Made by a program: the position numbers and the translations under genes. This document shows, piece by piece, positions 17,667-59,905 of a DNA stretch of 64,000 nt. Each line of letters starts with the position of its first letter. The first letter of the stretch is position 1. The notes beneath the pieces were generated by a model. That model saw only the letters and a program-made list of their open reading frames with translations, had not been told where the DNA came from and searched no databases. This DNA is from Trypanosoma brucei (Eukaryota), in assembly GCA_000002445.1 (NCBI GenBank), contig CP000068.1, positions 448,001-512,000 of the forward strand, read 5' to 3'.

Positions 17667-17694
<28 letters not shown>
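17667..17694. repeat. (TG)14 microsatellite immediately upstream of the LOG-family gene
   Basis: Read directly from the sequence. Confidence 0.9.
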
Positions 17695-17695
<1 letters not shown>

Positions 17696-18923
17696 ACCCA
17701 TGAAGGAAGACGGGCAATAAGTAAGAGCTCAAATTATTTCTTTGTCCTGCCGCGAACCAGCCGTCTGCTTTTTTTTTTATTTTATTACTGAGCTTCGTAC
17801 TTTCTCAACTCTCTCAACCACCGCCCTCCTCCACAACGTTCCACACGTGTTTTACACCCCCCCCCTTGTCGTTACTCGACCTTCACACTATAATGAAAGT
17901 CATGAGGAAATAAAAAAAAAAAAAAGAAACCTTCATGTCAAAGAATCTCAAAGCAGAATTTCACGGCACCGCAGAGACGGTCTTCACATACTTCTTACAC
18001 GTGCTGCCAAAACCGGTGCAAATAATAAAAAAGAAAACGACAACAATAATAACAACAATAACAAAAATTCAAACATGAGGGTTTCGCTCCCCCGCCCACT
18101 CATACGTAAACGCATAAGAACTATCAGTCCTTATAAACACGCTACTACGACTACGCTTCCGCACTTCCACTTTTTTGTCGTTATAATCAACTACTTTCCA
18201 GTGGGCACGGGAGGAAACAAAGGGGAAAGAAAGGTGTCGCTAACAAAACAACAAAAAAAGAAGAAAAAAAAATGGAACAAATATCGAGCACACACAACAA
18301 AAGGTGATTATTGCCTTTAGATAGATGACTGTCCTCCCCATTTTTTCCCCCCATCCATCCATCCATCCGGCCCTGAGCACGCGCACACACAAAATATTCA
18401 GCAGCATTTCCCTTTTAATTCTTCCGTATGTTAGGCGTTAATTCCTAAACATAAAGATATCCCCCCTCTCCCATTTTACGGTTCCTGGTAACAAAATCAT
18501 AATAATAATAATAATTATTATTAGTATTATAATGTTGCTTACTATAATTAACGGCCTCTACTTGGACCATCCCTCTTTTGTTTCTTCCCACACCAGGAAA
18601 TGTAACCCCGTTTGACACCCGTTCAAACAGAGTACTAACACATAAATCATTCGCTACGTACCATTTACCCCAGTATGGCTCAGTTTCCGAGTGCCTTGAC
18701 AAACATGATATAACTATCCTCTCTTGATCCTCTTCCATCATTATCTTTTAACATTTATCATCAGCATCTTCACTATGGTCGTCGTGCATAACTCATCCCC
18801 TTTCTTGCCTTGCCTTCACTTCACTTCATTTGATTTCTTGTTTTTTTTCTTTCATGAGAGGAGAAAGGAAGCGGCTTCCACGCGCGGAACCGAAAGGGTA
18901 CGCATCATGGGGCTTTTTTTTTT

Positions 18924-19808: not shown

Positions 19809-21201
19809 TATTACTATTATTTTCTTTCTTTTTTTGTAAAAAAGGGAGGGGGATTCTCACCCGCAGCTGCAACTATTCCTATTCCTACTTTATTATTATT
19901 ATTATTGTTGTTGTTGTTGTTTTCGTTTTTGCATGACGCAACAGTGCAATGAAAACGGGCAAAGGCACAAAACAACGACAACAACACAGGCGGTGCCATT
20001 TTTTTTAAATAAATAAAATTGGAGAGAAGTGGAACATCGGGGTAACCGCAAAGAAATATTAGTTAAAGAGATGAGAGGAAAAAATAATAAACTGAGGGGT
20101 GGGGTGGGGTGGGGAAAAAAGAAAATAAAGGACAAGGAAGGGGGAAAAAAAATCAAAGGAACCAAAGGGACTACCATAAAGGAAAGAAAGAAAAGGAGGC
20201 ATGTGGGTGTGCGGGGGAAAAAACAAAACATGGTATCAAAAACATACGTATCCTTTCGGAGGGAAAATAAATAAATAAAATAAAACAACAACAAATTTAG
20301 TGCGACATATCCGGATCGTAAAAGCGAAGAAAGAAAAAAAAAAGAAAAGGAGAGGAGAGGAGATGGTTGGGATTAGGACCCGGCTTCCCCCCCTTCCCTT
20401 CGGAAGGTGTAGTAAAATGTAAAGATGAGACGCATGGAAGTGGAAGTTCAGATGGTGAGGGCAAAAATAAATAAATAAAAATAAAAATAAAAATATAAAA
20501 TAAAATAAAGCAGTATTCACCACTTCCATCATGGAGCATAAAAACCAATTAGATACATTTAAATAAATCTAAAGTCAGGAGTCAAATTGCACACATTCCA
20601 TCATTTTCTTCTCTGAAGGGAGGAAGGGAAGGGGTTTTCTCCCTTGCATGTGCCGTCGTTGTTCACTCTTAACCGAAGAACGGAAGCAAAACAAACAAAC
20701 AAACACACGCACACACACGCTGAAAACAACAACAACAACTAAAAAAAAAAGTTGACCAAAAATACTACATATTTCACGCTCGAGAGAAGTCCCTGTCCTT
20801 ATTTTATTTTTTATGTTGTTTCATTTCTCTCCTCCCTTCACTTTTTTTTTCTCTTTCCCCCTTCATCACAAAAACGAGGTGAAGGCAAATATCCGTGGGA
20901 ATATAATTTGTACGGGGAGGAGAGGAAAGAAAATGAATTAAAAGTAAAATGGGAAATTTCTGGATGCTCCTGCACACACACGCGCGCAAATGCTTCGGAC
21001 AAACACATACGGAGTTATGCATTTGTACACTTCGTAAACGCTACAAAAATAACAAAAAATGTCAGCAGTAATGATGATAATAATATAATATTATATAAAA
21101 TAATAATGACAACAGTGGGGGAAAATAATGAACGCTATTAGCGTGTTTTTTTTACGGGTGCAAGCTCACAAACACATGGACACAAGCACACACAAATGTA
21201 A

Positions 21202-21224
21202 ATATATATATATATATATATATA
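21202..21224. repeat. (AT)n microsatellite in the 3.2-kb spacer between the cytochrome b5 reductase gene and EIF4G1
   Basis: Read directly from the sequence. Confidence 0.85.
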
Positions 21225-23027
21225 CATGCATAAATAAAGGCATACGGGGAGAGAACCAAAAACCAAACAAATAGTAATACACTCACTGCTTGGTTTCGTA
21301 AATTTGCATTTCCTTAACATCGCGTGCCCGTATACATGTTCATAAATTTGTATTTATAAATGAATAGGTGTTTGTGCATGTTTGTTTGCGCCCGTGTTGC
21401 GTAACGCATTTATTATTTTCATCTTTTCCCGAACTGGATAACATTCATTCAAATATTTCACTGTCCTTACGTAATTAAATGAAAAATTCTTCCTCTCCTT
21501 TCCTTTATTTTCTTTTTCCTGCTTTTCCTTGCGCTTTTCATCTCCTGTTGTGGCTTTGGCCAATGGCGGCCCACCCACACCAGTGACGCAACATTTAAGC
21601 TGCGGCAGAAAAGTCATAAGAAGTGGGAAGAACAAAAACTAAAGAAGCTCCGGGAGAAACCAAAAGTAAACAACAACAACAAAAAAAAAAGAAAAAAGAA
21701 AAAAGGGACCACTTAAAAGGAGTCGCCTCTCTTCTTCTTCTTCTCTCCCTTCTTCATCTTTACAAATAAGATAAGGTAATAAAAATAACAATACTAATCA
21801 AAAGTAGCAGAGAGTTTTTACACAGCAGAGGGAAACAGACAGAGAATGAGGCAATTTCGTTTTTTTTTTAAACTTTCTTTCTCAACATCATCACTTTTCT
21901 GTTTTCCCTTATAAAAGCGGCACAACACGTTTCCCGTGAGACGGAACAGTAACATGTCGTTAAACCGAATACTCAACAATCCCATACGCCAAACCTGCAG
22001 TGCAAGTTCTTTCTTATTATGATCATTTATTATTTTTCTTCCCTGCTTCTTTTCTCTCTTCCAACTTCTTTGAATACTGTCAAATGTCCTCACCAAAACA
22101 ATAATAACAACTACATACGAAAAAAAAATAATAATAATAATAATAGTAATGTAGTAGACAAACAAAAAAAAAAGCGAGTTTAATAATAATAATAATATAA
22201 AGAAGAAACGAAGAGCAAACACGTACACATGAAAGCTTCCTAAATAACTTTTCACGCAACATTCATTCACATGTGCTTCATTCGCTTCATCCATTTGCAT
22301 TCCCCAACCTGCACTCGGTTTAAGCACCTTTTATTTCCGTACCTCATTCAATCTTCAGCACACGCACAAGAAAACCAAAAAAAAAAACCAAAAAAAAAAC
22401 CAAAAAGAAAATAACACACAGGTAATAAAGACGTGGCCACGGAGGGAAAACAACAACAACAACAACGAAAGAGCGTGAAGTGAAAAATAAATGGAAACAA
22501 TGGAGCATATGCACACAGTCAAACCTGAAGAAACGGAAAACAACACACACACAAACATAACATGTCCGAGCAAAATAACTAACAAATACATTGCATATAT
22601 TGCAAGTACATACAAAATTCATTGTAGGGATGAGAAGAATAACAAAACATAAATAAAAACAGAAATAAAAGTAGAACACAAGCGTGGAAATAATAACAAA
22701 ATTCCTCCCCTTCCGTTCACCTCAAAATGTGGAGTAGTGATGCCCAAAAGGGCTGCATATTTTTAAGTGATGTAAAAAGGAGGGAGAAATGAGCAAATGA
22801 AGGAAAAACATGGAAATACGCTGCGTGCACATACGTACACACCCACCCACCCACAGATCTACTTTAGTAGCAGAGCATGATAAAATCTACCAAAAAACAG
22901 TAATGAATAACACGACGACCTAAACAAAAAAAAGGAGGAAAAAAAAACAACAACAACAACAACCAGCAGCAATACGAAAAAAAAAAAACTGCTTAAAAGA
23001 AAAATGATTAAAAAAATTCGAACCATT

Positions 23028-31301: not shown

Positions 31302-31405
<104 letters not shown>

Positions 31406-43364: not shown

Positions 43365-46300
43365 CCCGTTCGACTTCTCCCCTCTTTCGTATTACACGTC
43401 ACGGTGCCTTGACTTACACGCGGGGGCTTCCTTCAGCGCCTTTTCTCCCTTTACAGGTAGTAACTGCCGTCACTGGTAAAAATATCCAACAGACGCCCAC
43501 GGTGTGAACTCATTGAGATACAAAGACGGAAAAGGAAAGCGATGTAAGGGGAGGTGGATGGTGGAAAACATGTAGAGAGTTCAGGAAGAAAAACGGACAC
43601 CTTCGAAGCAGTTAAAACAAAAAAAAAGGAGATGAAACAAAAAGAAAAAGCGTCACGTCCCCCCTTGCTACAGGCTTAGATAAATAAAATTTCAACTCAA
43701 TGTTCTTAGGGGAGCGTAAAAAATTATTATTATTTTTTTTTGCCAAATCTTGGCCAGGAAAAGAGTAGAGTTACTTTTGAGGGCAGCAGCGCAAACAATG
43801 TGGCCAAGAAAACGTGGAATACCTTGTTTCACACTTTATTCTCACCTCACTCTCTTCTTTCAATTAAAAAAAAAGTATGCGCGTACACCATTTTTGAGTG
43901 AGAACAAAAAAATCGCACGCCCTTTCCCCATTACTCTTGTATCCGCGCGAGAGCAAACGGGTGTTACCGAGTGGAAGTGAGAAAAGCAGCCGTCACAAAA
44001 AAGGAAGGAGGGGGAGGGGAAACGTACGCAGTAGAACAGATAAGAAAAGAAGAGAAATGGTGGAATAAGGATTGGGAAGGAGCCAGGCGCATGCGCGCGC
44101 ACACACACATACACGTGGTTGTGCACTTTCATACCCCTTTTCACGACCTTAAACGTGCATATCACACCATTCCTATCTCATCTTCCTGCTCTTGTGTATA
44201 CGGTTCCTTCAAAATGCATCAACTTAAGCGGTGCCTCCTTCTGTGACACTTCGTTTTATCACCGATGAGTGCACCCAAAAAGAAAAACAGGGAAGCGGCT
44301 GAAAACAACAAGGGGGGAAGGCGAGAGCAACGTGTAGTGGTAGCGCTTACAAAGTACACATGTGCGTAATGCAGGTGGAGACTCGTTCAGCACCGACGTC
44401 AACGCCATCATCCTGAACAGCGTGGTTCCAACTCCACACACGCGTCTGTAACTGCGTTGATATTTCTACGCCCCCTCAGATATTGCATCCCTTGGCACAC
44501 CACGTGGTCGTGAAGATAGAACATTTGGGCTTAGTTTCTTTTCTCTTCTCTTTGTCCCCTTCACAAACCACTTTGGGGCCGCTTTACACTTAAGGACGTT
44601 GCTCTTCTTTCCTTCCCTGTCGTTTTCCAATGACCTTTGCCACCTCCGTAAAGAAATCGGCACTGTTCTTAAGGTGCGCGAAAGTAAACAAACTGAAAGA
44701 TTTGTCACGCCACCATGAGCGTGGCCCAGCAGACCAGTGTTGTTAGTGGGATTGTTCAGCGTGCCATGTGGGAGGTGGGAAAAATATGTGTTCATTCGTG
44801 ATAATAATGGAGATCACCCAAGGAAGGAAGTGTGGTAGGAAGTGGAGATTAAAACGTAGTTTCGTCCGCACTTACCCTCATGGGCGCAGCGCAAAACTAC
44901 CTTACAACGGAGACGCAGATCCCACTTCTCTTTCTTTTCTCTTACTTTCTTTCCCTCTTTCGTTTTTCACATTATTCATCTTACCATTTCAATATACTGC
45001 GAGTGGAAGGGTGAGAAAATGAGGGGTCAAGAAACGAGGAAGAAAAGCAGAAAAAACGGGCCCACTGTTCAGTGGGCAAAGCCATAACTTGGGACGTCGC
45101 CCCACTGCCCCTCATCCATTTCATTCACAACCCCTACATAACGCCATGCACACACTGCCCATGACAGTCAGTTTTCACTTTGCTCTCCACAGCATCCAGC
45201 CGGTAGAACAGAATATATGCCCGCTTCGGCGACCGTAGTCCAAGTGTCCACTTCCCTATAGCGACAACTTCATCATGTTCTATTAAAACGTGCACCCACC
45301 AGGTGACAGCAGCACCATAAAGTGGAGAATGGGTCACTAGAGAAAAAGTGGTAAAAACAGTGACCCATTCCCACAACACACAGTGTTCCTCTTCCTATGG
45401 TTCTTTCACATTCATCAAATCGATTAATTTCCTATTTCCACCCTTTTCTTGCCCACCATCACCGCAGCTCCAGCGCGAATGTCGCCACATTAACAGCAAA
45501 CCCCCAAAATCAGCAGGATAAAAAAAAAAAAATGTGCCCACCCCCTCCAAGTACATTTTGCATTACTGTCCCTACTACCCCCAAGCACATCTCATGCATT
45601 TTTGGGTATTAACTCCTGCATGCAGAGCGCATTGGACATACACACACACACACACACAGACACACATATATATATATGGTTTTCCCGTGTGTATGTACGA
45701 TGAGGAGAGGACACCCTCAACCCTCCTGCACTTTGCTTTACCTCTAAAATGAGAAAAAGAATTGTTCTGAGCGCCGATTGGGGCTCCCTGTCGTTAATGA
45801 TCCTCGAAAAACTAATTACCCTTCCCAACTCCCTTTCTTACTCTCCCTCTCTGTTTGTTTTCAGGTGTAGAGTCACTCCAGATTCTTGTAGGTCGTAAAC
45901 AACCTTATGCGCACACACACGCATTCGCACAGCTCTACCTTGCAGTGATGGGACACCGAACCGCCGCGGTGAAAAACTTTCACAATAGAAAAGCAAAAAC
46001 AACCTACGTAGGAGGCCCCCCCCCCCAGCCATACCATCAGTGTTAAACAGGGTCTTTAAAAAAAAAAAAGCACACACACACACACACACAAACGAAAAAA
46101 GAAGAAAAGAAAAAAAGAAAATTAATGGGGATGAGTACCCAAAACAAGTTATTGTATTATTTTTTCTTCCTATTTCTACTTGAAGGGTGGCTTGCCGGTG
46201 ATAAAAATACAGGAAGCGGCTCTGCACATATGTGTCGTTCATCTTCCTTCAATAAAACGTTTTATTTTTATTTTTTTGCAGAAATGAGTGAAGAACACCC

Positions 46301-48640: not shown

Positions 48641-50341
48641 TCACAGAGGGTACACGGGCACACATTTATCGGATTCTGCACATGACGACTGAAAGTAGTT
48701 AGCGACAACAGGGCGGGGTCGTTGAGCTGGTGGTATCGCACGATGTTGTTCACTTGGACACACAACCTGCGACGTGGCTTCACCAACTTTTCTCGCACCA
48801 CTTCCACCAGCTGCGGAGAAATCTTCCCCTCTTTCAACTGCTCTTGACGTCCATTCTTTGCCCGAGGATACTTCCGCTTGATCCCTTTGGATCTCACTGC
48901 CACCAAGTGCAGCATGTGCAAATATGTTCACATCACAGCCACGAAGGATACTAGTGAAGTCAACATTTCTGTTGTGCTCTTCAACGCTACCTCCTGCTCC
49001 CACACCACCATCACTCTGTTCAGAAGCTACTGGCCGATGAGATCCTCTATCAGCTCGAATTTCGTATAGCTGAGTCAGTCCTGCAGCGGTACATTGCCTA
49101 TAGATACTACCATTTTTCTCATCTCTTGGGTCAGTACCCGCATTCTTGTCCGCGAGAGACTCGCTGATGAGCCGTGAATCAAGTAGGGACCTAAAGTCGG
49201 ATATCTCCTTGGACTTTGTCGAAGGAGGTTCCTTCACTTTGGGGTTTCCGAATTCACCGACGTCGTAGCTGGAGGCATCGTTGTCCTTTCGAAGAGTCGA
49301 ACTCCCTATCCCTTCGGTACATGACGCACTGGACCACGTGGTAGGTTGGTGGGGCAGCGAAGTCTTCATTGATGTTTCGTACACACCCCCCAGGTGCGTA
49401 GACGGGTCCAAAGAAGGCAATACTTCTCCCGCACTTTGTGGAGTCAATCTATTTCCACTACTCCCGCTATTTACGGGAATATTGCCAACAGTATCAAATG
49501 CACGAAAGGCTAAATCCGTGGCACAGTTGGCATTTTCAACCTCCGTTGTCCTTGTTGTGACGAAAGAATTCACCATGTGACCATTAGAAATCCACGCTAC
49601 ACCATCACCAAACGCTGCCTCACTTGGTATTCCCACGCTTGGGATAAAAGGGCCAACATATGGTGGAGGAGCTCCCGGAAAGGGGAAAAGGAAAGCACCC
49701 GGGGCGAGTTGCACGAGTTGTCCTGAGGTGTCAGCCAAGTTCACAACACTAAGATAAACATTATTGCCGCTGGTAGGGTAATGTACACTCGTAGGTTGAA
49801 TTGTACTTTTGGCTTCGACACCCCTCGCTTTGTTTGTAAATACGCTCATATTCGCACGATTTTGCCTTGACAACTTACCTTTCGTTATTTTTGGCGGTGG
49901 TTTAACTCCCTTTAATTCAGTATCTTCCGTAAATGGCACGGTAGCCTCGGAGTTGCTCAGATGATGGGGTGATCCGACACTGCTTCCCCCTTTTGGAGAG
50001 AGAAGCTCAGCTTCATGCCATGAACAGTATGTTACTCTTCCACTAGCACCAGCCGTTGTCTCGTTTGCAGTGCTTTCCATTCCGCTCTCAAAACTGGCAC
50101 ACGGCAAGACAGACCTTTGCTCAGCATTACTACCTCCCTGGGCGCTTTCCACATTAGTGTCGCCACGTTCTCTGCTGTCTCGACTCTTTGGTCCTTCTTC
50201 CTCATGCCGCAACTCATCCTCCCCGTGCGCGAATGCACATCGATCACCAAACTGACACTCACCATTTTCCATGAAGTAGGTGCAAAGAGAAGTTTTGTAT
50301 TTTGACGCCTTCACGATATCATGTTTCCGGTTTCTCGCCAT
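48641..50341 (-). CDS. ZC3H13: CCCH zinc-finger protein, large paralogue (566 aa from the ATG at 50339-50341; the 586-aa ORF in the track starts at a TTG)
   Basis: KYKTSLCTYFMENGECQFGDRCAFAHGEDELR finger, with the same N-terminal layout as ZC3H12 (basic leader KxNKH..VKxSKY then finger). Long Ser/Thr/Pro-rich C-terminal region. The ATG was verified, and the upstream in-frame codon at 50399-50401 is complement caa, i.e. TTG. Confidence 0.7.
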   Translation of the reverse strand: MARNRKHDIVKASKYKTSLCTYFMENGECQFGDRCAFAHGEDELRHEEEGPKSRDSRERGDTNVESAQGGSNAEQRSVLPCASFESGMESTANETTAGASGRVTYCSWHEAELLSPKGGSSVGSPHHLSNSEATVPFTEDTELKGVKPPPKITKGKLSRQNRANMSVFTNKARGVEAKSTIQPTSVHYPTSGNNVYLSVVNLADTSGQLVQLAPGAFLFPFPGAPPPYVGPFIPSVGIPSEAAFGDGVAWISNGHMVNSFVTTRTTEVENANCATDLAFRAFDTVGNIPVNSGSSGNRLTPQSAGEVLPSLDPSTHLGGVYETSMKTSLPHQPTTWSSASCTEGIGSSTLRKDNDASSYDVGEFGNPKVKEPPSTKSKEISDFRSLLDSRLISESLADKNAGTDPRDEKNGSIYRQCTAAGLTQLYEIRADRGSHRPVASEQSDGGVGAGGSVEEHNRNVDFTSILRGCDVNIFAHAALGGSEIQRDQAEVSSGKEWTSRAVERGEDFSAAGGSGARKVGEATSQVVCPSEQHRAIPPAQRPRPVVANYFQSSCAESDKCVPVYPL

Positions 50342-53300
50342 ATTACCGGCTATATAAGGGTCCCAGTATATATATATTTGACACCTCTCTACAGGCAACA
50401 ACTGTGGTTATATCCCTCCTATATTCGGACCTTCCAGTCGGCGACCTGTAGGAATTGCTATGGGAACGAAAAGCACTCCTAACCTCCAGAATCTCTTATG
50501 TGCTCTTTCTCGAGGAAAAAAAGAAATTACGAAAAAAAGCTCCAACGGCAGTAAGAAGGTAAGGCAGGGAACACAGTTGTATTCGGTACCCCAAATCGGT
50601 ACTACAAGAAACAAAGCCGATAATGTCATATGAAACAAACAACAAAAAGGGGAAAACATTTCAATAAGGGACAGCCTTCGGCTGCAGAGTTTTCCTTTCC
50701 CGTACTCACGTCTCAGTTGGTGTTTCAGTAAAAAAGGGTTCTTCCACATGCATGCGGATTACTACAGAGAGAACACAACCAGAAATCAATCACCACCGTT
50801 CAACGATGCATCTCAAACAATAAACATCAATGACCTGCTTTTCCCCGAGTGAGGGAATAGAATGAAGAGCAATTACATTTCAAACGACAAAATATCAATA
50901 GCAATTTAGAAATACTATAAGAGAACACATCACCGTACTATTTGAGCCGAAAGACATCAGGTGTGTATGACATCCCGTTTTAAGCAAGGAACAGACACTT
51001 AAAAAGTACTCAAAATTGTAAAGCAGCGATGCCGCCGTTACGTAAAGCAATATCACACGGGAAATACAAGGCTTCGCGTACCGAGGTAGTGGTTCAACAA
51101 CTGTACAAATACCGGTAAGATATCAAACAAGTTGACTGAGTATGCTGGAGGAAGTTACCAACTACACAACAAATACTTTGTTCTCAACCGTATACAAGAG
51201 TTTTTAAAAAGGATATGATCTAAGGTATTTCATGCATCTGCTTGCCATTTGAACAAATAATTAAAATGCACCCCGCGTTCTACAACGAGCGGCTAAATAA
51301 TAACAACAATAATACAACGATGATGAATTAAAGTAAAAAAAAAATGATGATCTACACGCAAACGCGGTTGACACCCCGCAGCGTAAAAAGAACAAACGAA
51401 CACTCAAAACTGTGAGGGTAGAAACAATGGAAGCAGTACGTCAATGAGTAAAACAAGCCCTTGCTTTGGGGGGAGGTAAATAATACGAAGCATCGAAATT
51501 CACGCTACTTTAAAGTAAATTCCTCTCGCGAACTTCAACCGTTAGTTTGAATTACACACACCACTGGATTAATTCCCTCTCTTCAGAGCCGTGTCAAATA
51601 CTTCCCATCCGAAACATCGGCAAACATGCAGGGATGACAGCGAATGCTTGTCACACCTCAATATATACAATCCATAAAACACAAGACAATACCAGGTTCT
51701 GTACACATCAGTCAGTTACGAAAGCCGTAACACGGTAATTGGTTAAATACAAACGTAAGCATGCGGATGTTAGTGCATGTATCCCGCCACAGCAAGGGGA
51801 TCCGGAAAAAGAAACACCAAAATGAAGCCAGCAACGTCTAAAAGTAGCGCAATCGATCAGACAGATGCGAAGACACACGATGCAGACATTTTTTTTAAAT
51901 GCAGCAGCAGTTCTCCACCGACAAATATTACAACGAAAACAGAATATTCCACGACACTAATCCCACTAAACGGAAAAAATGGGTCAGAACATCCACCAGC
52001 CGCACACTTATGTTAGAAAGCAACGCCACTCCATCCCGCACAAACATCCAATGCCCTCTCTGAAGGTTACAACTGCCCTGCATCTGCGTTGAAACAGACT
52101 AACAAAAAATAAAATAAAATAACCGCCTCTGCCTTCAAAGGGGGTGGGGGCTGCACTCGCCTGCGGCAGCTCTCTTAAAAAACGGCCGCGCTTACTGTTG
52201 TGCCTCCGCTGACGTTGACATTTGGCCAGAAGAGGTGAAGGGCTACTGCTCACAGAAGGAGACGCCGCACGAAAAGCTGCGAGGATAGCACACGGCCATG
52301 TACATGCCGGAGAGGGGCCGCGGCTTCAACTGGCATTGGTGCAAGTGCGCTCAACAATGGTGCGTAAAGTACTCACCGCGGTCCCATTAGCAGCCACCGG
52401 GGCGGTACATTTCAAGCCACAGGCTGCAGGTGGTGAGGTGCACCAATCCGCTTGCCGCGTCGCCACTTCCGCCGGTTATCAATACCAAGTGGTAATTAGG
52501 GCGGGGCCCCCGCAAGAAAAAAAAAACGAAACAGCCACCAAGGAGCAAACGGTTGAAAGGGGCAAAAAAAAAAAAATAACGGCAAAGAAGCGCGAGGCGC
52601 CCGCCGACCTAACGACATTGGCAGGGTTGCTTTAAACGGCACCGCCAAAGCGAGAAACAACACCCCCACTTGAAAGGGCCGCGCGGACGTCGACCGGGCT
52701 TCATTAGCGGTGGGAATCTCTGAAAACATCAGGCACGCAAATACCCGGGCGCGGCCTGCACACCATACCGGTTGTTCCTTGTTTCTGGAGGCTGTCGCGT
52801 GTCATCAAGACGGTACCTACTGTAGTGTGCCTTGTGGAACGTCCATCGATGACAGATACGGGCGAGAGTGGAGACGGTCCCTCATTTCTTGAGGAAAAGG
52901 CAACCCCCCCCCCCCAAAAAAAAAAATAATAATAATGAAAAATGCAGGTAATAGTATTCGCCGGCGCACCTCCCCTTTAATTTCGTTTGGAACGTTTCCT
53001 GCAAGATTAAGGAGGGGATTATGCGTCGCACACGGAAGGGCATGATAGAACTAACCCGAAGAAAAGTAACGACAACCTTCCTATTCGTGCTTTCTCACCG
53101 TTGGATAAAGGGTAATGGTCAAACGGGCAGAAGAACCGACTTCACGCTACAACAATGCTCGGTGGGGTGGGTGGTAGTCAACGCAGCCGCGTTGAAATTT
53201 GAAAAGAGAAGAGCGGTGAAATACAAACTTGAGAACAACCAAAACGATAAAACATGTAGATGTGAGCTTTTGCGGAAAACTCGCCTTGCCGGAAGAGATT

Positions 53301-56300
53301 GCTTCCTTCGTCGAGTCACAGACATCTGCGCAGTGCGGCGTACCGGACAATGGCGCCGCGGCTTGGCAGGTGGCCGCACAACTGGGTGCATCAGCTGAAA
53401 GTAAACGAAGCGTCGGAAATACACCGGAAAGGAGCCAGAGTGGCGACGGTATTAAGGGTAGAATTGCTGTCACCACGTCTACAGTAAAAACTTTGGATAG
53501 AGGCGATCGTTGTGGAAGCACCCGCCGAAACACGTTTCAAATAAATCTGCAACCGTGCTCCCAAGGGAAAAGGCAAAGAAAAAAAAAGGGAAGCAGCGAC
53601 GGAGGGGAGACGTTGAGAGGTTGCTCTTTTCTCAGGTACGCTAGCGGATGGAGTGTTTTTAAAAAATATTCGCCCGTTGTCCCAGTGGCAGAAAGAGGAG
53701 GGGAGGCATTTGGGGAAGTGGTCGTAGAATAGTTAACATGCACATAAAGAAAGGAATTGCCTAACAGAGTTTTCGTATTTTGGACAACAGAGGTTGCTGG
53801 GGGATCATGAGCGTGGGAGCCTTAAGCCTCCAGCGGTTCCCGGTCGTGAGCCCCTTCAAAAAGCAGCTGAGTAGCTGTTGAGTCTACAACGATAGATTTG
53901 AGAGAGAGATAGAGGAGGGTAATTAGCGGACCCAACTTATTCTGTGCCTGTGGCCCCGCAATTATAAGAGGGTTTCATTTCTTGACAGTTGAGGCTCTTG
54001 CTGCGGTAGACTGGTCTTGAGTTTTTTTTTCCAAGCACAGCCCAAACTGACAGGAGCGGCGACTGACTCAAACACCTTTATCAATTTTGCTACGATCGCA
54101 TCACTATTTCCGTCCCATGTCATTGTAGTATAAACTGGTAGTCGCTTCTTGCTCCATTCAAACGGTGGGGAATCTCTGAGGCAGCGGTCTCCTCCGCTTC
54201 TCAAGGCAGTTCACATGCATAACTTATCTTGCAGAGGTGCTGTTGTGGCTGGTGATGAGCAATTTGACATTCATTAATTGGTAAGTAGTTTAGAGGAGCT
54301 CAAAGGCGTTATTTGATACGGCAGTTGGTTGTTTTGTTTGGAAACAAATTGGGGTCATATTGGTTCTAACTGTCCGTAATAGGGCGGCTCGGACAATCCG
54401 AGGGAGTTTTTCCCCTTTCAATTACTATTCATCACGGGATTTTCAATAATTTTATTGTTCATACTTTTTTTCGTTTATTGTAATTTATCATGAAAATGCG
54501 TGTGCCAATAATTTTTTAAATTATAATTTCTATTTGTCATTTCGTTTTTTTCTCTAAATTTCTTTTTACAATGTTTTTTATTTTCATCGAGATGAAACTG
54601 GATTTTCGGTGTATGAGGTTTTAAATTGAATATTAGTGGGTTATTGTAGCTATTTGTTGAAGGAACATCTTGTTTATTTTACTCTGTTGTTTTATATTGA
54701 GGTCTCCCCTATGTTTTCACTGATGGTTGGGGTTTTGTGTGGATTATTCTCATTTCGTTTTTTCTTTTTGGCGCCACGACCGATCGCTGATGTGTCTGGT
54801 TATTCGATGTGCGTTAAAAAAATTTAAATGGTCGTGCGGACATTCTTTGGCAGTTGTGTGTCAATGGAGACGTGCACGTGAATCGCCACTTTGTTTCAAG
54901 TAGACATGTTTTAATTTTTTAAACCTAAACCTAGCTCTCTTGAAGCGTTGCACAGTCTGGTCGGTGAAGTTGCAGTTGGTGCAATTTTTTGCTCTGTGGG
55001 ATCAATGCTTGCTCTGCTTGTACATCCCGATATGTAGGCCCTGATATGGGTTCTAAATAATGTTGTTTGGGTAATTAATAGTGTTTGATGACGTGTTTGC
55101 TGGTGTTTTCATATCGAACCTACTTGTTGTTTGCAATGCCGTGTGACATATCTTCCCTTTCGTGGAGCATTTTTTTTTAAATAGAAAAAAGTTTCTTGTG
55201 GCGCTTTTTATCTTTTATATTTTAGGGAGATTAAAATTTGATTTTCAACCGTTAAAAAGTTCTTGTTATTTATTTTCTTTCCCACTTTACCTTGAGATTA
55301 ATGTTGTTGATGCTAGGTAGTTTATGTTCCGACGTAGTGATTAATTGTTTAGTTTGTATTGTATGCTTGTCCATAGTTCGTTTATTCTTACGGATGCCTT
55401 AGTGGTGCAGATACATGGGAGTCGTGCTGTGAATAGACAAAAAGAATAACTATATACTTTGAAGATTAACAGATTGCACCTCTCCGGGGGAGGGTATACC
55501 ATTTTTGTTGTTGATTTCACGTATTTTGCGGATTGACCAGTTTACCACTTCAGGCCCAGTAACAGTTGTTCTAAGATCATTGATGTACTTTTTATTTGGG
55601 TATCCTGTATATTTTTATCAAAAGGTTATTTTCTATTACACGCAAAGTTTCTCGTACCTGTAGAAATGCTCTTGGGTTAACTGCACTCTTTACTTACATT
55701 GTGCTAATGAGTGATATGGACGTATGTGTCCAGTTGAATATTATTTTTCTCGCGTATTATGTGTTTAATGTTTTTCAATTGCTCCCCTTTCCTCATCTCC
55801 GTCATTTGTCCTCTTATCTTTGCTAGACAATAATGGTAAATGCATCCGATAGTAAACAGCACTTGCCTAAAAAAAATTATACTTCATACGGTGCTATTAT
55901 TATTTGTAGGCAAGTGCTGTTTATCACTGTTATTATTATCATTAATGTTATCTTTTGTGAATCTTGTGGCTGGCTTTATCTTTTTTACTTTGTTGTTACT
56001 TTCCCCTATTCTGCTGTTACTGAAACATGTTTCGTCGACTATGTGATACACAATTTTGTTATAACGTATGTGTTTGAGTTAATAGATGTAGATAAAAGAT
56101 GCCACTCCATAATGCATTTTTATTGGTTCATTTCTCTTCCGGAGGAAGATGCTTCCATTTTTTTATTTTTTAGAAATTTAAATGGGTTTATTTAATTATG
56201 ATTGTGTACGGCACATTTTAAACCAGATTTCGCTCTGTTTTGTTAATGTACTTATGCCAAAATGCGGGGTATTTTGTTTTATAAAGTGTTAAATTTATTT

Positions 56301-57211
56301 TCTGATCTTTGTGGTGCGTAACGAAAATTTAACACCAACGATCACCCTCGGACAAACCACTTTAGATATTAAATAACCGGAACTACTATGATCCTAACAA
56401 TATATAAGAATATACAAACATCTGTAAAGTTTTAAAATTTGTATATACTTATAATTTAAGCGCCTGAGCAATGGCCAACTGCATCGTTTAATATCACTTT
56501 CATTTTTCATTTTTTTTTAAAAAACGATGTCTGTGTTGTTATTGATCGGAGAAAAATTAGGAGGTTGCGTGTTATTCTATTTACCCTCCTAACAGTCACT
56601 TTCTTTTTTTTTCACGACGATTTCATCTCACTTTGAACCCAACGAGTTGTGTGATTTTATTGCCAGAATATGCGCTGTTACCTCTTTGAAAATTCATAGT
56701 TCATGCTTTTTGAATTCAACGCTTGAGTTTTATCGAAAAGAAGCGAATGAAGTCTTTTCCCTTTTCATCGTTGTGTTGCGGCACCGATGCTTTTTTTTTT
56801 CTGGCTCCACTTACGAACAGTTGGAAAAAATATTTTTCCTAGTGCGAGTGCAGAGCAACTGGTCAGCTTTAAAAAGTTTTTTTTAGAATGCTAAACTTTA
56901 AAAAATAATATCGTGTTGTCATCCAGATACATTTTAGAAAATGGTTAGCAACTGGGATTGCAAGTCATATATTCTGGCACACGTTGATGTTTGGTTTGAT
57001 ACATATTTTATTGTGTTATATTTTTGCTATTATTTTATTGGGGAATTTATCTTCGATATGCGCTCATAAGCACCGACTTCTTTTTATATTTGTACTACTA
57101 CTGCAACCTGACCACCGTTCATATGTGTATATATATTAACTACAGTTTCTTGCTCGAAGGGTCCGGCACCTTAAGGTACATTAGCGTAGTAAGGTTGTTG
57201 GATTTACCGCG
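50342..57211. other. Divergent strand-switch region between the leftward and rightward polycistronic units. Putative RNA polymerase II transcription start region.
   Basis: All supported genes left of it are minus-strand and all to the right are plus-strand. It contains no long coding-like ORF. Composition is strand-mirrored: 50.4-52.1 kb is A/C-rich on plus (GT-rich on minus), and 54.3-57.0 kb is GT-rich on plus. Between them lies a GC-rich 52.1-54.2 kb island with a C13A11 run at 52905-52929. Confidence 0.75.
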
Positions 57212-57976
57212 ATGGTGATAAAGAAGGATGTTCCTTTCAAGTACACGCTACATCAAGGACTATGTGAGCGGGATCCAGTTTTGAGCACCCCTTTGATAAT
57301 TACGGCGGGAGTAGATGGCAATGAATTGCAGTACCGTCTTGACATGCAAGTTCCATCGCATTCAGCTATTGAAGGCATGGAGGTTACTAACGTGGAGTTC
57401 CTCTTTACAAGTAGCAAATGTAACGCGGGTAAATCAAATCAACATCTTTCTAAGTGTAGCATGTTAGTGTACTTGTACATGCAACTGCTTGATGGTGTAG
57501 GCAGACCCACGAGTCCACCGTTTCCTATATCATGTTGCAACACCCATACTGGGAAAGGCATTTTTTCGTGCGTAAAGCTGCCCCTTCAGGTTAATCAACA
57601 GTGCAGATTCTATTTGGTTCGAAGAAGTTGTACAGATAGTGCTTCCCAGAGTGCTATGGAACTTAAGGGTGTGCGCTTTACCAGTAAGTTGTACCTTTTG
57701 TATCGTTCACCGCTGAATTCTGCAAAAGTTCGGAGTCAGATGGACGTACTCACAGGTGGCGATCTAAAATTTACGGCAGATACCGAAGTAATGACTTCTA
57801 CCGGTGCGAAACGCAGTCGTGAGGAATTAGAGCGATTCGGATCTGAAAATTCTGATCGCAAGGGGAAAAAAGCAAAGAGGGAAAGGGAAACGGCGACCAC
57901 GATGGATAGGGCTTCCGATGATGAACCCCCAAACCTTATTTATGCCTTCGTGTCAGGAGGAGACAATGAGAGTTAA
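57212..57976 (+). CDS. Hypothetical protein, 254 aa, first gene of the rightward unit. Has a basic, NLS-like C-terminal region.
   Basis: ATG-initiated ORF (atg gtg ata aag) with coding-like, non-repetitive composition. C-terminal KRSREELERFGSENSDRKGKKAKRERE. Confidence 0.45.
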   Translation: MVIKKDVPFKYTLHQGLCERDPVLSTPLIITAGVDGNELQYRLDMQVPSHSAIEGMEVTNVEFLFTSSKCNAGKSNQHLSKCSMLVYLYMQLLDGVGRPTSPPFPISCCNTHTGKGIFSCVKLPLQVNQQCRFYLVRRSCTDSASQSAMELKGVRFTSKLYLLYRSPLNSAKVRSQMDVLTGGDLKFTADTEVMTSTGAKRSREELERFGSENSDRKGKKAKRERETATTMDRASDDEPPNLIYAFVSGGDNES

Positions 57977-59905
57977 TAATTGTGCGCATATTAAGTTCGC
58001 CATCCCCCCCCCCCCGAGGCATGCTGTCAATATTTTTGACCGTCGCATTATCACATTGCGGCATTTTTTTGCCTGTAGTTCCGTTTTTTCTTGGTGATTT
58101 TTGTCGGTTTTACCTTTTCGATTTATACATATCTACATTGCCACGATTAAGATCCGCTTTCTTCATGTTAATGAAAACAAGCATCATTACTTTTCTCCTC
58201 TGTGACATGTAAATTCGCAAAAAAAAAAACTCTTTCCCCACATTTTCTTAGTTTTAATGTAGTACATACGGTGGTTCATAATTTAGATGGCTGCTATTTT
58301 CTAATGCTTAGATTCACAAAATACTTTAAATAAGTAAAGTGAAATTGGCTATGCATTTTTGGACAAGTGTTTAAGGCCTTGTGTGAATAACATTACTTAA
58401 CTTTCTGGATTGCTGTATAAATGGTTGAGATGACACTACTTTTTTGTTTTTTTTAATTTTAAAGATGAGCAAGAGGGTGTTTGTGGTTTTCTATGTACCT
58501 CATTAATTTCATACAGCGATAAATTTCTATCATTCTGGAAGTGGGTTTCATTTGCGAGGGAATCAATTGAGATGTTGGTTTTTCAACGTTGCGAGAGAAT
58601 CTCTTGGACTGCTGCAATGACACAGGAAGTTACAACATTGATGTCACTACATTTTTATTGGCAAAGGCGATCGTAAGAGTGCGCGGTATATATTCCCCAA
58701 CGTGAAGGGGGAAATGCGTAAAATATGCATGTGTGTGAGCTTGGCCCTTTACAAAATATAAAATATAACAGCAGAGTAGTAGCATTCTACGGTTTCTGTT
58801 AGACTTTCCATCTTCTTACTGCAATGATGTGAGTTCCTTTGTTACGTGTTTCTTTTGTTTTTGCAGTGTGACTCAATTGGAGATATCCGGGCGTCTGTAC
58901 CGGGGTACGCGCAACTAATGAAGGAAATACTTTAGTATCAACTATTTTTCTTTACCTTTTGCGGAACATTTTTAAAAATTATTATTATTTTGACCGTTGT
59001 TATGTGATATTAAAAAGTTGATAGTGTTCATTTGTTTTGGTTTTATTACACCGAAGACTCGCTATCGGTGTTTTTAGTGTATTTTCTCAGTTATCGTTTT
59101 GCTTTCCTTAGCAGCACGTGGTCAAGGGTTCGATTTTTTTCCCCCTTTGCCATTTGCAGGTGTTTTTGCTGCGACACGGTAAATGGGGATGCCAGCAACT
59201 GAGTTGTCCTGGTAGCTTGGGCAGATATGTCATTTTTCAATTCTACCCAACATCTACAGTTGTTTGATTCATTTCTCTCTTATTTTTATTTTTTACTTTG
59301 GTTTTTTTAAACATTTGGAAGATGACATCCTGAAGGATCGGGGTGATATACCTTCTAAAACGATAAATGGCACGGGGCTGCAATTTAACAGCAAGTTACT
59401 ACCTCAGGAATTACTGGTGATGAACTAAGGTAGTGAAGACCATGCGCGCAGTCCTGTTCGCTGCCGTACCGTCCGTGTGCGGTTTGTAAACAGCTGCAAA
59501 CTTACTTTCTTTTATCGATCGATTTGTTTTTTTAAAGATAAACTTTTTGCAAGGGATTTTGATGTACTCAATTATTTTTGTAAATATACGTGGTTTCGTC
59601 ATTCGAAAAATCTTTGAACACGCGGCAATTCTTTAGGTAACTGTGGGATCGCGTCTTCTTTTTATGCGACGGCATTTAAACGTAGGAGCTGCTGTTCTGT
59701 GAGGTTGCTGTGACTTACTCTGCACCATGGTTGTTCACTGCTCCCTTAATGCTTCTATTTTTTGAAATGTTTAAATCTATATCCCATCGTGTTTAACGCA
59801 CTTGTAGGAAAACCCGCGGAGAACAACATTTATTTTTGTCATCATTAATGCTATTATTACCCTTTTTTTTTGCAATCTCTTAATAGGGTTTACGTGGTCA
59901 TTTGA

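What the first reader, a model, noticed from the sequence alone, without database searches (positions are those of the whole stretch)
50342..57211. Divergent strand-switch region with mirrored GT-rich tracts feeding both transcription units
Gene orientation flips here, from the minus-strand ZC3H13 start at 50341 to the plus-strand start at 57212, so the two units are transcribed away from this 6.9-kb gap. In kinetoplastids such a gap is a polymerase II initiation zone. The composition is strikingly organised. The left arm (50.4-52.1 kb) is A/C-rich on the plus strand, i.e. GT-rich on the strand transcribed leftward. The right arm (54.3-57.0 kb, about 2.7 kb with no credible ORF) is G/T-rich on the plus strand, the strand transcribed rightward. 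Each divergent unit is therefore preceded by a long GT-rich tract on its own coding strand. This is the arrangement reported to promote H2A.Z deposition and initiation at T. brucei start sites. A C13-A11 run at 52905-52929 and a C13 run at 57996-58008 sit at the edges.
Basis: partly seen in the sequence, partly recalled or inferred. Interest (0 to 1): 0.55.

Follow-up and report, generated by a model that had tools for sequence, protein, structure and literature searches.

The report
Known trypanosome divergent transcription start region
This 6.9-kb gene-free gap is the already catalogued divergent strand-switch region between Tb927.5.1580 (ZC3H13) and Tb927.5.1590 on Trypanosoma brucei chromosome 5; its mirrored GT-richness is real, but it is the ordinary coding-strand skew of trypanosome non-coding DNA, so the finding is correct but ordinary.

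Summary
The window is T. brucei TREU927 chromosome 5, Tb927_05_v4:448,001-512,000. The arms are skewed as described: 59.6% A+C on the left and 59.5% G+T on the right.

Kolev et al. 2010 (Table S14) already list both flanking units as 'Divergent' putative Pol II transcription units. The initiation-zone reading is therefore supported, and it is already known.

The skew is not special to this gap. Twenty ordinary intergenic regions in the window have coding-strand G+T of 0.50-0.59 (pooled 0.552), and same-size windows reach 0.60-0.66. After de-clustering, the published TSR-enriched 10-mers (Wedel 2017) are no denser or more strand-biased in the gap than in ordinary intergenic DNA (16:4 vs 85:38, p=0.43).

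The runs are C12-A11 at 52904-52926 and C12 at 58004-58015, not C13. The first lies mid-gap and the second lies outside the gap.

I found no tRNA, Rfam RNA, repeat element, conserved ORF or cross-species sequence conservation.

Two new minor points emerged:
- A GC/CpG-rich island at the skew switch is the most GC-rich non-coding 300 bp in each locus, in four Trypanosoma species.
- T. brucei lacks a Kelch-repeat gene that sits beside this switch region in T. cruzi, T. rangeli and T. theileri.

The parts
48641..50341 (-). ZC3H13 (Tb927.5.1580) coding sequence, the first gene of the leftward polycistronic unit
   Evidence: The 566-aa product from the ATG at 50341 is an exact match to AAZ11273/XP_844832. 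Tb927.5.1580 is named ZC3H13 in PMC4055773. Kolev Table S14 lists it as the first ORF of a 'Divergent' minus-strand unit.
50342..50504 (-). 5'UTR of ZC3H13, with the major spliced-leader acceptor site at 50504
   Evidence: Kolev Table S12 gives the primary splice site at chr5 498,504 and a 5'UTR of 163 nt. The window offset is 448,000, which is consistent for five genes.
50505..52100 (-). Left arm: non-coding leader of the leftward unit, T- and G-rich on the minus strand
   Evidence: Minus-strand composition is G 0.226, T 0.375, A 0.213, C 0.185, giving G+T 0.60. Codon log-likelihood is negative in all six frames. The arm holds only 2 hits to the published TSR 10-mers. No spliced transcript is listed here.
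52101..52930 (-). GC/CpG-rich island carrying minus-strand T and G runs; the predicted 5' end of the leftward start region
   Evidence: The 300-bp window at 52176-52475 has GC 0.60, the highest of 1,024 non-coding windows in the 64 kb. Twenty minus-strand hits to Wedel's TSR 10-mers fall at 52,104-52,919. The plus strand carries A10, A13 and C12A11 runs.
52904..52926 (-). T11-G12 on the minus strand (C12-A11 on the plus strand)
   Evidence: The run matches GGGGGGGGGG, TTTGGGGGGG, TTTTGGGGGG and TTTTTTTGGG. G10 is the most enriched coding-strand 10-mer at the 5' ends of TSRs (132 vs 17). Its length varies between strains: C12, C10 and C8 in TREU927, T. equiperdum and T. b. gambiense.
52931..54299 (.). 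Core between the two outward-facing GT-rich clusters, where the strand skew changes sign
   Evidence: Cumulative GT-AC is flat from 53,000 to 53,750, with the global minimum at 53,600. GC skew turns positive near 52.8 kb and AT skew turns negative near 53.9 kb. The 53.5-54.5 kb stretch has the highest brucei-gambiense divergence in the gap, 2.0-2.4%. The ORFs have no Pfam match and no homologue.
54300..57145 (+). Right arm: T-rich non-coding leader of the rightward unit
   Evidence: Composition over 54300-57000 is G 0.187, T 0.408, A 0.249, C 0.156, giving G+T 0.595. Plus-strand TSR 10-mer hits cluster at 54,329-54,763. Codon log-likelihood is -0.13 to -0.50. No spliced transcript is listed before the 57146 acceptor.
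57146..57211 (+). 5'UTR of Tb927.5.1590, with the major spliced-leader acceptor site at 57146
   Evidence: Kolev Table S12 gives the primary splice site at chr5 505,146 and a 5'UTR of 66 nt.
57212..57976 (+). Tb927.5.1590, a 254-aa conserved hypothetical protein and the first gene of the rightward unit
   Evidence: It is an exact match to AAZ11274/XP_844833. Orthologues at 41-43% identity occur in T. cruzi, T. rangeli, T. grayi and T. theileri. Kolev Table S14 lists it as the first ORF of a 'Divergent' plus-strand unit.

Best explanation
The interval is the divergent strand-switch region, i.e. the paired transcription start regions, between two RNA polymerase II polycistronic units on T. brucei chromosome 5. 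The units are Tb927.5.1580->1390 leftward and Tb927.5.1590->2010 rightward, and the gap is Tb927_05_v4:498,342-505,211.

Polymerase II starts in both outward directions from the middle of the gap. Each primary transcript begins with a long non-coding leader. That leader is discarded when the first gene is trans-spliced, at 50,504 on the minus strand and 57,146 on the plus strand.

The mirrored composition is the general excess of T (and G) on the transcribed-sense strand. All non-coding DNA in these units shows it. It therefore reports the direction of transcription and locates the switch at about 53.0-53.75 kb. It is not a promoter signature peculiar to the arms.

The elements most like published GT-rich start-region sequences sit at the inner edges. 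T/G runs lie on the minus strand at 52.10-52.93 kb, topped by T11G12. T-rich 10-mers lie on the plus strand at 54.33-54.76 kb. I infer that leftward initiation is concentrated near 52.1-52.9 kb and rightward initiation near 54.3 kb, on either side of a roughly 1.4-kb core next to a GC-rich island.

Shown here: gene orientation, composition, splice sites, and published start-region status. Inferred: the exact initiation positions, and any causal role of the T/G runs at this locus.
For: - Identity and coordinates: exact protein matches to TREU927. Five genes fit a single offset of 448,000 to Kolev's splice-site table.
- Published initiation status: both flanking units are 'Divergent' putative Pol II units, and 5'-triphosphate reads are reported enriched at every divergent transcription unit.
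- No spliced transcript lies between the two first-gene acceptors.
- No tRNA and no Rfam family at gathering threshold. The ORFs in the gap have no Pfam match. The 167-aa ORF has no real homologue among 1.84 billion representatives.
- The skew is generic: 20 ordinary intergenic regions have coding-strand G+T of 0.502-0.586. The pooled value is 0.552, against 0.595-0.602 for the arms, and same-size ordinary windows reach 0.596-0.658.
- The skew switch is inside the gap.
- TSR 10-mers cluster at the inner edges, and they come from Wedel's Dataset EV1.
- The divergent arrangement is conserved in T. theileri (ZC3H13-like gene on one side, Kelch then the 254-aa orthologue on the other). It is also conserved in T. 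cruzi and T. rangeli (CCCH gene on one side, Kelch then the orthologue on the other).
Against: - No initiation or chromatin data could be overlaid here, so start-site status rests on a published table and not on signal I inspected.
- The inferred initiation positions rest on 10-mer clusters that are not statistically distinguishable from ordinary intergenic DNA once de-clustered (16:4 vs 85:38, p=0.43).
- The rightward unit has no G run of 7 or more on its coding strand in the gap.
- The centre (52.1-54.3 kb) has a plus-strand composition almost identical to pooled coding sequence. It also has two stretches with coding-like codon scores, 0.18 and 0.26, above all 127 ordinary intergenic windows. 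A purely non-coding reading does not explain this.
Confidence: 0.85

Rival explanations
1. The two long arms (50.4-52.1 kb and 54.3-57.0 kb) are themselves dispersed GT-rich promoters in the sense of Wedel et al. 2017. Their GT-richness would actively drive directional initiation and H2A.Z deposition for each unit.
For: Each arm is about 60% G+T on its own coding strand. That is at the top of the local range and 4-5 points above pooled intergenic DNA. Wedel et al. showed that synthetic GT-rich elements drive directional transcription and H2A.Z deposition. The right arm carries a cluster of the published 10-mers at its inner end.
Against: - The left arm proper has only 2 hits to the published 10-mers.
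- Density and strand bias of de-clustered hits in the gap equal those of ordinary intergenic DNA.
- The ordinary intergenic region 19809-23027 is more GT-rich (1-kb maximum 0.658) and has 42 hits, yet no internal start is listed there.
- Wedel et al. place initiation and the 10-mer enrichment at the 5' end of each start region, not along its length.
- The richness is mostly T, as in every intergenic region.
Confidence: 0.3
2. The centre of the gap (about 52.1-54.3 kb) is the fossil of a plus-strand gene lost in the T. brucei lineage, most plausibly the Kelch-repeat gene that sits beside this switch region in other trypanosomes. On this view the ancestral switch region corresponds only to about 50.5-52.1 kb, and the gap is large because of gene decay.
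For: - T. cruzi, T. rangeli and T. theileri all have a Kelch-repeat gene of about 600 aa between the switch region and the 254-aa orthologue, and gaps of only 1.9-4.1 kb. No such gene is in the window.
- The plus-strand composition of the centre (G .276, T .211, A .281, C .232) nearly equals pooled coding sequence (.278/.228/.267/.226).
- Frame-specific codon scores of 0.18 (52351-52650) and 0.26 (53251-53550) exceed all 127 ordinary intergenic windows, whose maximum is 0.075.
- The distance from the ZC3H13 ATG to 52.1 kb (1.76 kb) resembles the whole gap in T. theileri (1.9 kb).
Against: - tblastn and a three-species profile HMM of the Kelch protein find nothing in the gap (best E above 1).
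- Pfam finds no Kelch or other domain in the three plus-strand frame translations of 51,990-54,389. The minus frames were not scanned.
- The 167-aa ORF has no ATG and no real homologue.
- Long ORFs inflate codon scores by construction.
- GC-rich islands also occur at the same switch region in species that still have the Kelch gene, so GC-richness need not mean a fossil.
- The centre shows the highest, not the lowest, brucei-gambiense divergence in the gap. That fits absence of constraint but is uninformative about origin.
Confidence: 0.2
3. The region's main sequence-specified role is as an ORC1/CDC6 binding site or early replication origin. The compositional switch would then reflect replication-associated as well as transcription-associated asymmetry.
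For: Tiengwe et al. 2012 (PMC3607257) report that ORC1/CDC6 sites and origins lie at transcription-unit boundaries. Nineteen of 42 early origins centre on divergent strand-switch regions.
Against: I found no locus-specific statement for this position in the text passages searched, and a query for origin names on chromosome 5 was rejected as malformed. About 80% of ORC1/CDC6 sites are not active origins. The skew follows transcription direction in every intergenic region of the window, far from any switch. That is what transcription or RNA processing predicts, not replication.
Confidence: 0.15

Closest known systems
Divergent strand-switch regions / transcription start regions of T. brucei Pol II polycistronic units (Siegel et al. 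2009; Kolev et al. 2010, PMC2936537)
   Same: Flanking genes are divergent. The gene-free gap of several kb matches the '5-10 kb' described for such regions. The coding-strand G/T skew changes sign inside the gap. This very pair of units is listed as 'Divergent' in Kolev Table S14.
   Different: Nothing of substance. It is one of the 71 divergent start-region pairs analysed in Wedel et al.. It has no neighbouring tRNA or snRNA gene.
GT-rich dispersed promoter elements (Wedel et al. 2017, PMC5579346)
   Same: T and G homopolymer-rich 10-mers lie on the coding strand. These include T11G12 at 52904-52926, which contains the top-ranked G10 motif, and they sit towards the 5' end of each outward unit.
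   Different: Hit density and strand bias do not exceed ordinary intergenic DNA in the same window. The rightward unit lacks a G run. Activity and H2A.Z deposition are untested here.
Sequence-specific 75-bp Pol II core promoters in T. brucei start regions (Cordon-Obras et al. 2022, Cell Rep 38:110221; cited in PMC11796357 and bioRxiv 10.1101/2024.04.16.589700)
   Same: Two oppositely oriented promoters are expected within a divergent switch region of 5-10 kb. The two inward clusters found here fit that layout.
   Different: The paper is not held in the library, so its promoter sequence could not be compared with this locus.
Leishmania major chromosome 1 strand-switch region with poly(dG:dC) tracts at the start sites (Martinez-Calvillo et al. 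2003; from my own knowledge, not checked here)
   Same: A C/G homopolymer tract sits in the core of a divergent switch region, with outward transcription.
   Different: The Leishmania region is under 1 kb, whereas this gap is 6.9 kb. Only one long tract is present here, and its length varies between strains.
CpG-island-type dispersed promoters of metazoa (Deaton & Bird 2011, as cited by Wedel et al.)
   Same: A GC/CpG-rich island (GC 0.60, 25 CpG per 300 bp) lies at the centre of a broad, motif-poor, divergent initiation zone.
   Different: There is no evidence here on methylation, factor binding or nucleosome depletion. The resemblance is compositional only.

Membership tests
Kinetoplastid divergent strand-switch region / Pol II transcription start region | Flanking protein-coding genes point away from each other, and all genes on each side share one strand | tested here: met
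   Non-overlapped ORFs of at least 180 aa are '-' up to 50341 and '+' from 57212. They match TREU927 proteins exactly. Kolev's unit table agrees.
Kinetoplastid divergent strand-switch region / Pol II transcription start region | No gene of either strand inside the gap | tested here: met
   There is no tRNA and no Rfam family at gathering threshold. The ORFs have no Pfam match, and the 167-aa ORF has no real homologue. No spliced transcript is listed between the two acceptors. TREU927 and T. equiperdum annotate nothing here. T. b. gambiense annotates three ORFs of 113-120 aa without Pfam hits.
Kinetoplastid divergent strand-switch region / Pol II transcription start region | Enrichment of 5'-triphosphate (primary) transcripts and RNA Pol II | not testable with these tools
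   No read data are available here. Published result: Kolev et al. report enrichment at every divergent transcription unit and list these two units in Table S14.
Kinetoplastid divergent strand-switch region / Pol II transcription start region | H2A.Z/H2B.V, H4K10ac, H3K4me3 and BDF3 enrichment | not testable with these tools
   No ChIP tracks are available. Kolev et al. state that their sites coincide with all sites marked by modified and variant histones in Siegel et al. 2009.
Kinetoplastid divergent strand-switch region / Pol II transcription start region | G>C and T>A skew on the coding strand, changing sign within the region | tested here: met
   The global minimum of cumulative GT-AC for the whole window is at 53,600.
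GT-rich promoter element (Wedel et al. 2017) | [quoted passage not shown] | tested here: not met
   Raw hits are strongly biased: 22:1 left of 53 kb and 18:2 right of it. After merging overlapping hits the ratio is 16:4 in the gap against 85:38 in ordinary intergenic DNA (Fisher p=0.43). Density is 2.3-2.4 sites/kb, against 2.8/kb in the plus-unit body.
GT-rich promoter element (Wedel et al. 2017) | Long G run on the coding strand at the 5' end of the start region (G10 is the top motif, 132 vs 17) | tested here: inconclusive
   The feature is met for the leftward unit, with G12 on the minus strand at 52904-52915. It is not met for the rightward unit, which has no plus-strand G run of 7 or more in the gap. 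Plus-strand C runs of 9-11 (G runs on the minus, coding strand) also occur inside the leftward unit at 17857, 46016 and 47259.
GT-rich promoter element (Wedel et al. 2017) | Orientation-dependent reporter activity and induced H2A.Z deposition | not testable with these tools
   This requires transfection and ChIP.
Sequence-specific 75-bp core promoter (Cordon-Obras et al. 2022) | Match to the published core promoter sequence | not tested

The most novel reading that the evidence does not exclude
The discriminating sequence feature of this start region may be the short GC/CpG-rich island at the skew switch (52.1-52.8 kb) and not the GT-rich arms. This island is the most GC-rich non-coding 300 bp in the whole locus in T. 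brucei, T. cruzi, T. rangeli and T. theileri, and it is conserved in composition but not in sequence. It could be the nucleosome-excluding or factor-binding core that fixes where divergent Pol II initiation (or ORC binding) occurs across the genus. The T/G-rich arms would then be passive transcribed leaders.
Probability: 0.2. Interest if true: 0.4.

Novelty: already known. Interest (0 to 1): 0.15.

Why it matters
Strand-switch regions are where trypanosomes start nearly all of their protein-coding transcription, and how the start sites are specified remains only partly understood. This locus adds no new kind of element, because it is one of the catalogued divergent start regions.

Its practical value is as a caution. 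Within one 64-kb window, GT-richness and the published GT-rich 10-mers do not separate a real start region from ordinary intergenic DNA. Sequence-only calls of 'GT-rich promoters' therefore have little specificity.

The compositionally conserved GC island would be a more useful sequence marker if it proves general across divergent switch regions. The lineage-specific loss of a flanking Kelch gene explains why the T. brucei gap is two to three times longer than in other trypanosomes.

Tried and rejected
- **RNA genes in the gap.** ARAGORN found no tRNA. Rfam at gathering threshold found none. At E<=1 the only matches were plant-miRNA models hitting a hairpin at 55853-55923, which I judge to be chance.
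- **Tandem repeats.** Only trivial A/T-rich units were found.
- **Inverted-repeat relationship between the arms.** Only A/T-run matches were found.
- **Repeat element shared with the rest of the window.** blastn found none.
- **Canonical G-quadruplex motifs in the gap.** None were found.
- **Coding potential of gap ORFs.** No Pfam hits appeared, including on the three plus-strand frame translations of 51,990-54,389 with stops masked. The minus frames were not scanned. The 167-aa ORF gave one hit among 1.84 billion representatives. That hit comes from summed weak matches to an internally repetitive protein and is not homology.
- **Relic of the Kelch gene.** tblastn and a three-species profile HMM against six-frame pieces found nothing.
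- **Relic of the metallophosphatase gene in 57977-59905.** One weak tblastn hit appeared at 58980-59138 (E=0.12). The profile search and a restricted tblastn gave only short, non-collinear matches, so I rejected it as unproven.
- **Retroelement relic.** T. vivax reverse-transcriptase and endonuclease fragments gave no hit in the gap.
- **Cross-species DNA conservation of the switch region.** Only low-complexity matches were found among T. brucei, T. cruzi, T. rangeli, T. theileri and T. vivax.
- **Selective constraint from brucei-gambiense divergence.** No segment is convincingly conserved. The centre is the most divergent part of the gap.
- **T. brucei Kelch orthologue elsewhere.** None was retrieved. 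The known T. theileri orthologue was also missed, so this is inconclusive.
- **Start-region coordinates in the Wedel 2017 supplements.** None are held.
- **Cordon-Obras 2022.** The paper is not held.
- **Origin names for chromosome 5 in Tiengwe 2012.** The query was malformed and I did not pursue it.
- **T. theileri composition.** The values for L011 8095-8695 are distorted by an assembly gap of Ns and should be ignored.


Full report
**Where the window comes from.** Five proteins encoded around the finding are exact matches to Trypanosoma brucei brucei TREU927 entries. They are ZC3H12 (AAZ11272), ZC3H13 (AAZ11273), a 254-aa conserved hypothetical (AAZ11274), a CFA20-domain protein (AAZ11275) and ribosomal protein L13a. 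Tb927.5.1580 is ZC3H13 (PMC4055773). The splice-site table of Kolev et al. 2010 (PMC2936537, Table S12) gives primary spliced-leader acceptor sites and 5'UTR lengths for Tb927.5.1570.1580.1590.1600 and .1610. All five fit the window's start codons with a single offset of 448,000. The window is therefore Tb927_05_v4:448,001-512,000, and the gap is chr5 498,342-505,211. The first acceptor sites on either side are at window 50,504 (-) and 57,146 (+).

**Checking the observation: orientation and skew.** Orientation flips exactly as stated. Every ORF of at least 180 aa not overlapped by a longer opposite-strand ORF is on the minus strand up to 50341 and on the plus strand from 57212. The one exception is a TTG-start ORF at 17742-18320 (+) without a Pfam match. 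The left arm (50400-52100) is 59.6% A+C on the plus strand. The right arm (54300-57000) is 59.5% G+T and mostly T (40.8%). The window mean G+T is 48.6%. The cumulative (G+T)-(A+C) curve for the entire 64 kb has its global minimum in the gap, at 53,600, and is flat between 53,000 and 53,750. GC skew changes sign near 52.8 kb and AT skew near 53.9 kb.

**Checking the observation: the homopolymer runs.** The details are slightly off. The runs are C12-A11 at 52904-52926 and C12 at 58004-58015, not C13. The first lies in the middle of the gap. The second lies outside it, in the 3' flank of the 254-aa gene, and is a C run on that unit's coding strand. Both runs vary in length among TREU927, T. equiperdum and T. 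b. gambiense: C12/C10/C8 and C12/C11/C7.

**Is the skew more than background?** Against a uniform background it clearly is. Against the right control it is not. The 20 ordinary intergenic regions of the same window, all lying within unidirectional gene arrays, have coding-strand G+T of 0.502-0.586. Pooled, they are G 0.217, T 0.335, A 0.253, C 0.195, giving G+T 0.552. The arms are 0.595-0.602. Ordinary windows of the same size reach 0.596 (2.7 kb), 0.609 (1.7 kb) and 0.658 (1 kb). The mirrored pattern is thus the general T>A, G>C excess on the sense strand of trypanosome non-coding DNA, slightly accentuated. This skew was reported long ago (McDonagh 2000 and Siegel 2009, as cited by Wedel et al.). 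It marks the direction of transcription and so locates the switch, but it does not single out the arms as promoters.

**Comparison with the published GT-rich promoter signature.** Wedel et al. 2017 (PMC5579346) defined GT-rich elements as 10-mers at least six-fold enriched on the coding strand of 199 start regions. The enrichment is concentrated in the 5'-most fifth of each region, and G10 is by far the strongest motif at 132 vs 17. Initiation and Pol II map to the 5' end of the H2A.Z domain. I scanned the window with all 157 listed 10-mers.
- In the gap, minus-strand hits cluster at 52,104-52,919. There are 20 hits, eight of them from the T11G12 run.
- Plus-strand hits cluster at 54,329-54,763.
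- Raw counts look sharply strand-specific, but overlapping 10-mers from single homopolymers inflate them.
- After merging hits within 15 nt, the gap has 16 coding-strand and 4 non-coding-strand sites, against 85 and 38 in ordinary intergenic DNA (Fisher p=0.43). The density of 2.3-2.4 sites/kb is no higher than in the plus-unit body.
- The ordinary intergenic region 19809-23027 has 42 raw hits and the most GT-rich kilobase in the window. Even so, Kolev et al. list Tb927.5.1580->1390 as one uninterrupted unit.

On sequence alone, therefore, this start region cannot be told apart from ordinary intergenic DNA by GT content.

**Direct evidence on function.** Kolev et al. sequenced a 5'-triphosphate-enriched library. 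[quoted passage not shown] Their Table S14 lists 'Tb927.5.1580 -> Tb927.5.1390, -, Divergent' and 'Tb927.5.1590 -> Tb927.5.2010, +, Divergent'. Their transcript tables list no trans-spliced transcript between the two first-gene acceptor sites. The initiation-zone interpretation is thus supported by published experiment, and for the same reason it is not new.

**What else is in the gap.** I found no tRNA and no Rfam family at gathering threshold. There were no significant tandem repeats, no element shared with the rest of the window and no canonical G4 motif. T. b. gambiense annotates three ORFs of 113-120 aa here, while TREU927 and T. equiperdum annotate none. None of the gap ORFs has a Pfam match.

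The centre (52.1-54.3 kb) is compositionally odd.
- Its GC is 51%.
- Its plus-strand base composition is nearly identical to pooled coding sequence.
- Two frame-specific stretches have codon scores of 0.18 and 0.26, above all 127 ordinary intergenic windows.

Against a coding reading, the 167-aa ORF has no ATG. Its only hit among 1.84 billion representative proteins is an artefact of an internally repetitive protein. The centre is also the most divergent part of the gap between T. b. brucei and T. b. gambiense, at 2.0-2.4%.

**Comparative context.** The same divergent junction exists in other trypanosomes, but with different neighbours.
- T. theileri has a ZC3H13-like gene on one side. On the other side are a Kelch-repeat gene, the 254-aa orthologue, a metallophosphatase gene, CFA20 and L13a.
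- T. cruzi and T. rangeli have a CCCH gene on one side, and Kelch followed by the 254-aa orthologue on the other.
- The gaps in these three species are 1.9-4.1 kb.
- T. brucei lacks both the Kelch and the metallophosphatase genes at these positions. No relic is detectable by tblastn, profile HMM or Pfam.
- In T. vivax, retroelement fragments abut the ZC3H13 orthologue and synteny is broken.
- There is no DNA sequence conservation between the switch regions of any pair of species.

One compositional feature is shared. In each of the four species, the most GC-rich non-coding 300-bp window of the whole locus lies in this switch region.

| Species | Top GC in the switch region | Best non-coding window elsewhere in the locus |
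|---|---|---|
| T. brucei | 0.60 | 0.55 |
| T. cruzi | 0.66 | 0.45 |
| T. rangeli | 0.59 | 0.54 |
| T. theileri | 0.63 | 0.41 |

I found no description of such an island in the papers I searched. It is one locus, however, and needs a genome-wide test.

**Most likely mechanism.** Pol II initiates outward from the central part of the gap. The leftward primary transcript runs through 52.9->50.5 kb and the rightward one through 54.3->57.1 kb. Both leaders are removed when the first genes are trans-spliced. Kolev et al. describe polyadenylated, SL-less leader remnants at such sites. The T/G runs at the inner edges, above all T11G12, are the best candidates for the directional, nucleosome-excluding elements described by Wedel et al.. 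That assignment, and the exact start positions, are inferences.

**Rivals.** I considered three.
- The arms themselves are the promoters (0.3).
- The centre is a fossil plus-strand gene, so the true ancestral switch region is only 50.5-52.1 kb (0.2).
- The region's main role is as a replication origin or ORC site (0.15).

**Verdict.** The feature is a real, already catalogued divergent transcription start region. Its 'mirrored GT-rich tracts' are the ordinary strand skew of the genome. Interest is low.

Noticed in passing
window 52101-52800 (peak 52176-52475); L007 7026-7325; L008 7126-7425; L011 8726-9025: A GC/CpG-rich island sits at the skew switch. In each of four Trypanosoma species it is the most GC-rich non-coding 300-bp window of the whole locus. 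Values are 0.60, 0.66, 0.59 and 0.63, against 0.55, 0.45, 0.54 and 0.41 for the best window elsewhere. The islands share no detectable sequence similarity.
   Followed up: partly
window 55853-55923 (+): A strong hairpin lies inside the T-rich right arm. It has 29-nt arms that are 90% complementary and a 16-bp perfect core. The RNA fold energy is -30.1 kcal/mol, z = -6.06 against shuffles. The hairpin is identical in T. b. gambiense and T. equiperdum. Its only Rfam matches are sub-threshold plant miRNA models.
   Followed up: partly
window 50342-57211 and 57977-59905; L006/L007, L008, L011: T. cruzi, T. rangeli and T. theileri carry a Kelch-repeat gene of about 600 aa between the switch region and the 254-aa orthologue. 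They also carry a 400-aa metallophosphatase gene between that orthologue and the CFA20 gene. Both genes are absent from T. brucei here, and no relic is recognisable.
   Followed up: yes
window 58252-59773 (+): Kolev's novel trans-spliced, polyadenylated transcript Tb5.NT.42 (chr5 506,252-507,773) fills the slot where other trypanosomes have the metallophosphatase gene. This interval has the highest T. b. brucei vs T. b. gambiense divergence in the aligned 16 kb, at 2.6-3.6%.
   Followed up: partly
window 19809-23027 (-): This ordinary 3.2-kb intergenic region is as GT-rich as the switch-region arms or more so. Its coding-strand G+T is 0.586 overall, with a 1-kb maximum of 0.658. It carries 42 hits to the published start-region 10-mers, yet no internal start site is listed for this unit.
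   Followed up: partly
window 52904-52915 and 58004-58015: Both long C runs differ in length between close relatives: C12/C10/C8 and C12/C11/C7 in TREU927, T. equiperdum and T. b. gambiense. This reflects either real polymorphism or homopolymer sequencing error.
   Followed up: yes
L009 2989-5307 (T. vivax): Retroelement fragments lie directly upstream of the T. vivax ZC3H13 orthologue, on the opposite strand. They are an RVT_1 reverse-transcriptase piece and an endonuclease-like 298-aa ORF. The 254-aa gene is not within 10 kb, so synteny is broken at this switch region.
   Followed up: partly
chr5 477,621-506,252 (window 29621-58252): Kolev's novel-transcript numbering jumps from Tb5.NT.39 to Tb5.NT.42. 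The two dropped entries would fall in the interval that contains this switch region. They may be the SL-less leader transcripts that the authors excluded, but that is speculation.
   Followed up: no
window 564-9098 (-): A tandem array alternates three ISG65/75-family genes of 434-435 aa (Pfam PF11727) with two 210-aa leucine-rich-repeat ORFs and ends with a 302-aa leucine-rich-repeat ORF. The repeat period is about 2.94 kb, and an identical G4-type motif recurs at 414, 3344 and 6283.
   Followed up: partly
window 31305-31404: A perfect (CA)50 dinucleotide repeat, (TG)50 on the coding strand, lies in an ordinary intergenic region. Shorter TG/CA repeats occur at 17667-17694, 45640-45657 and 46071-46090.
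   Followed up: no
L011 about 8290-8600 (T. theileri): An assembly gap of Ns lies inside the T. theileri switch region. It distorts the composition values for those windows, and the true length of that gap in the genome is uncertain.
   Followed up: yes
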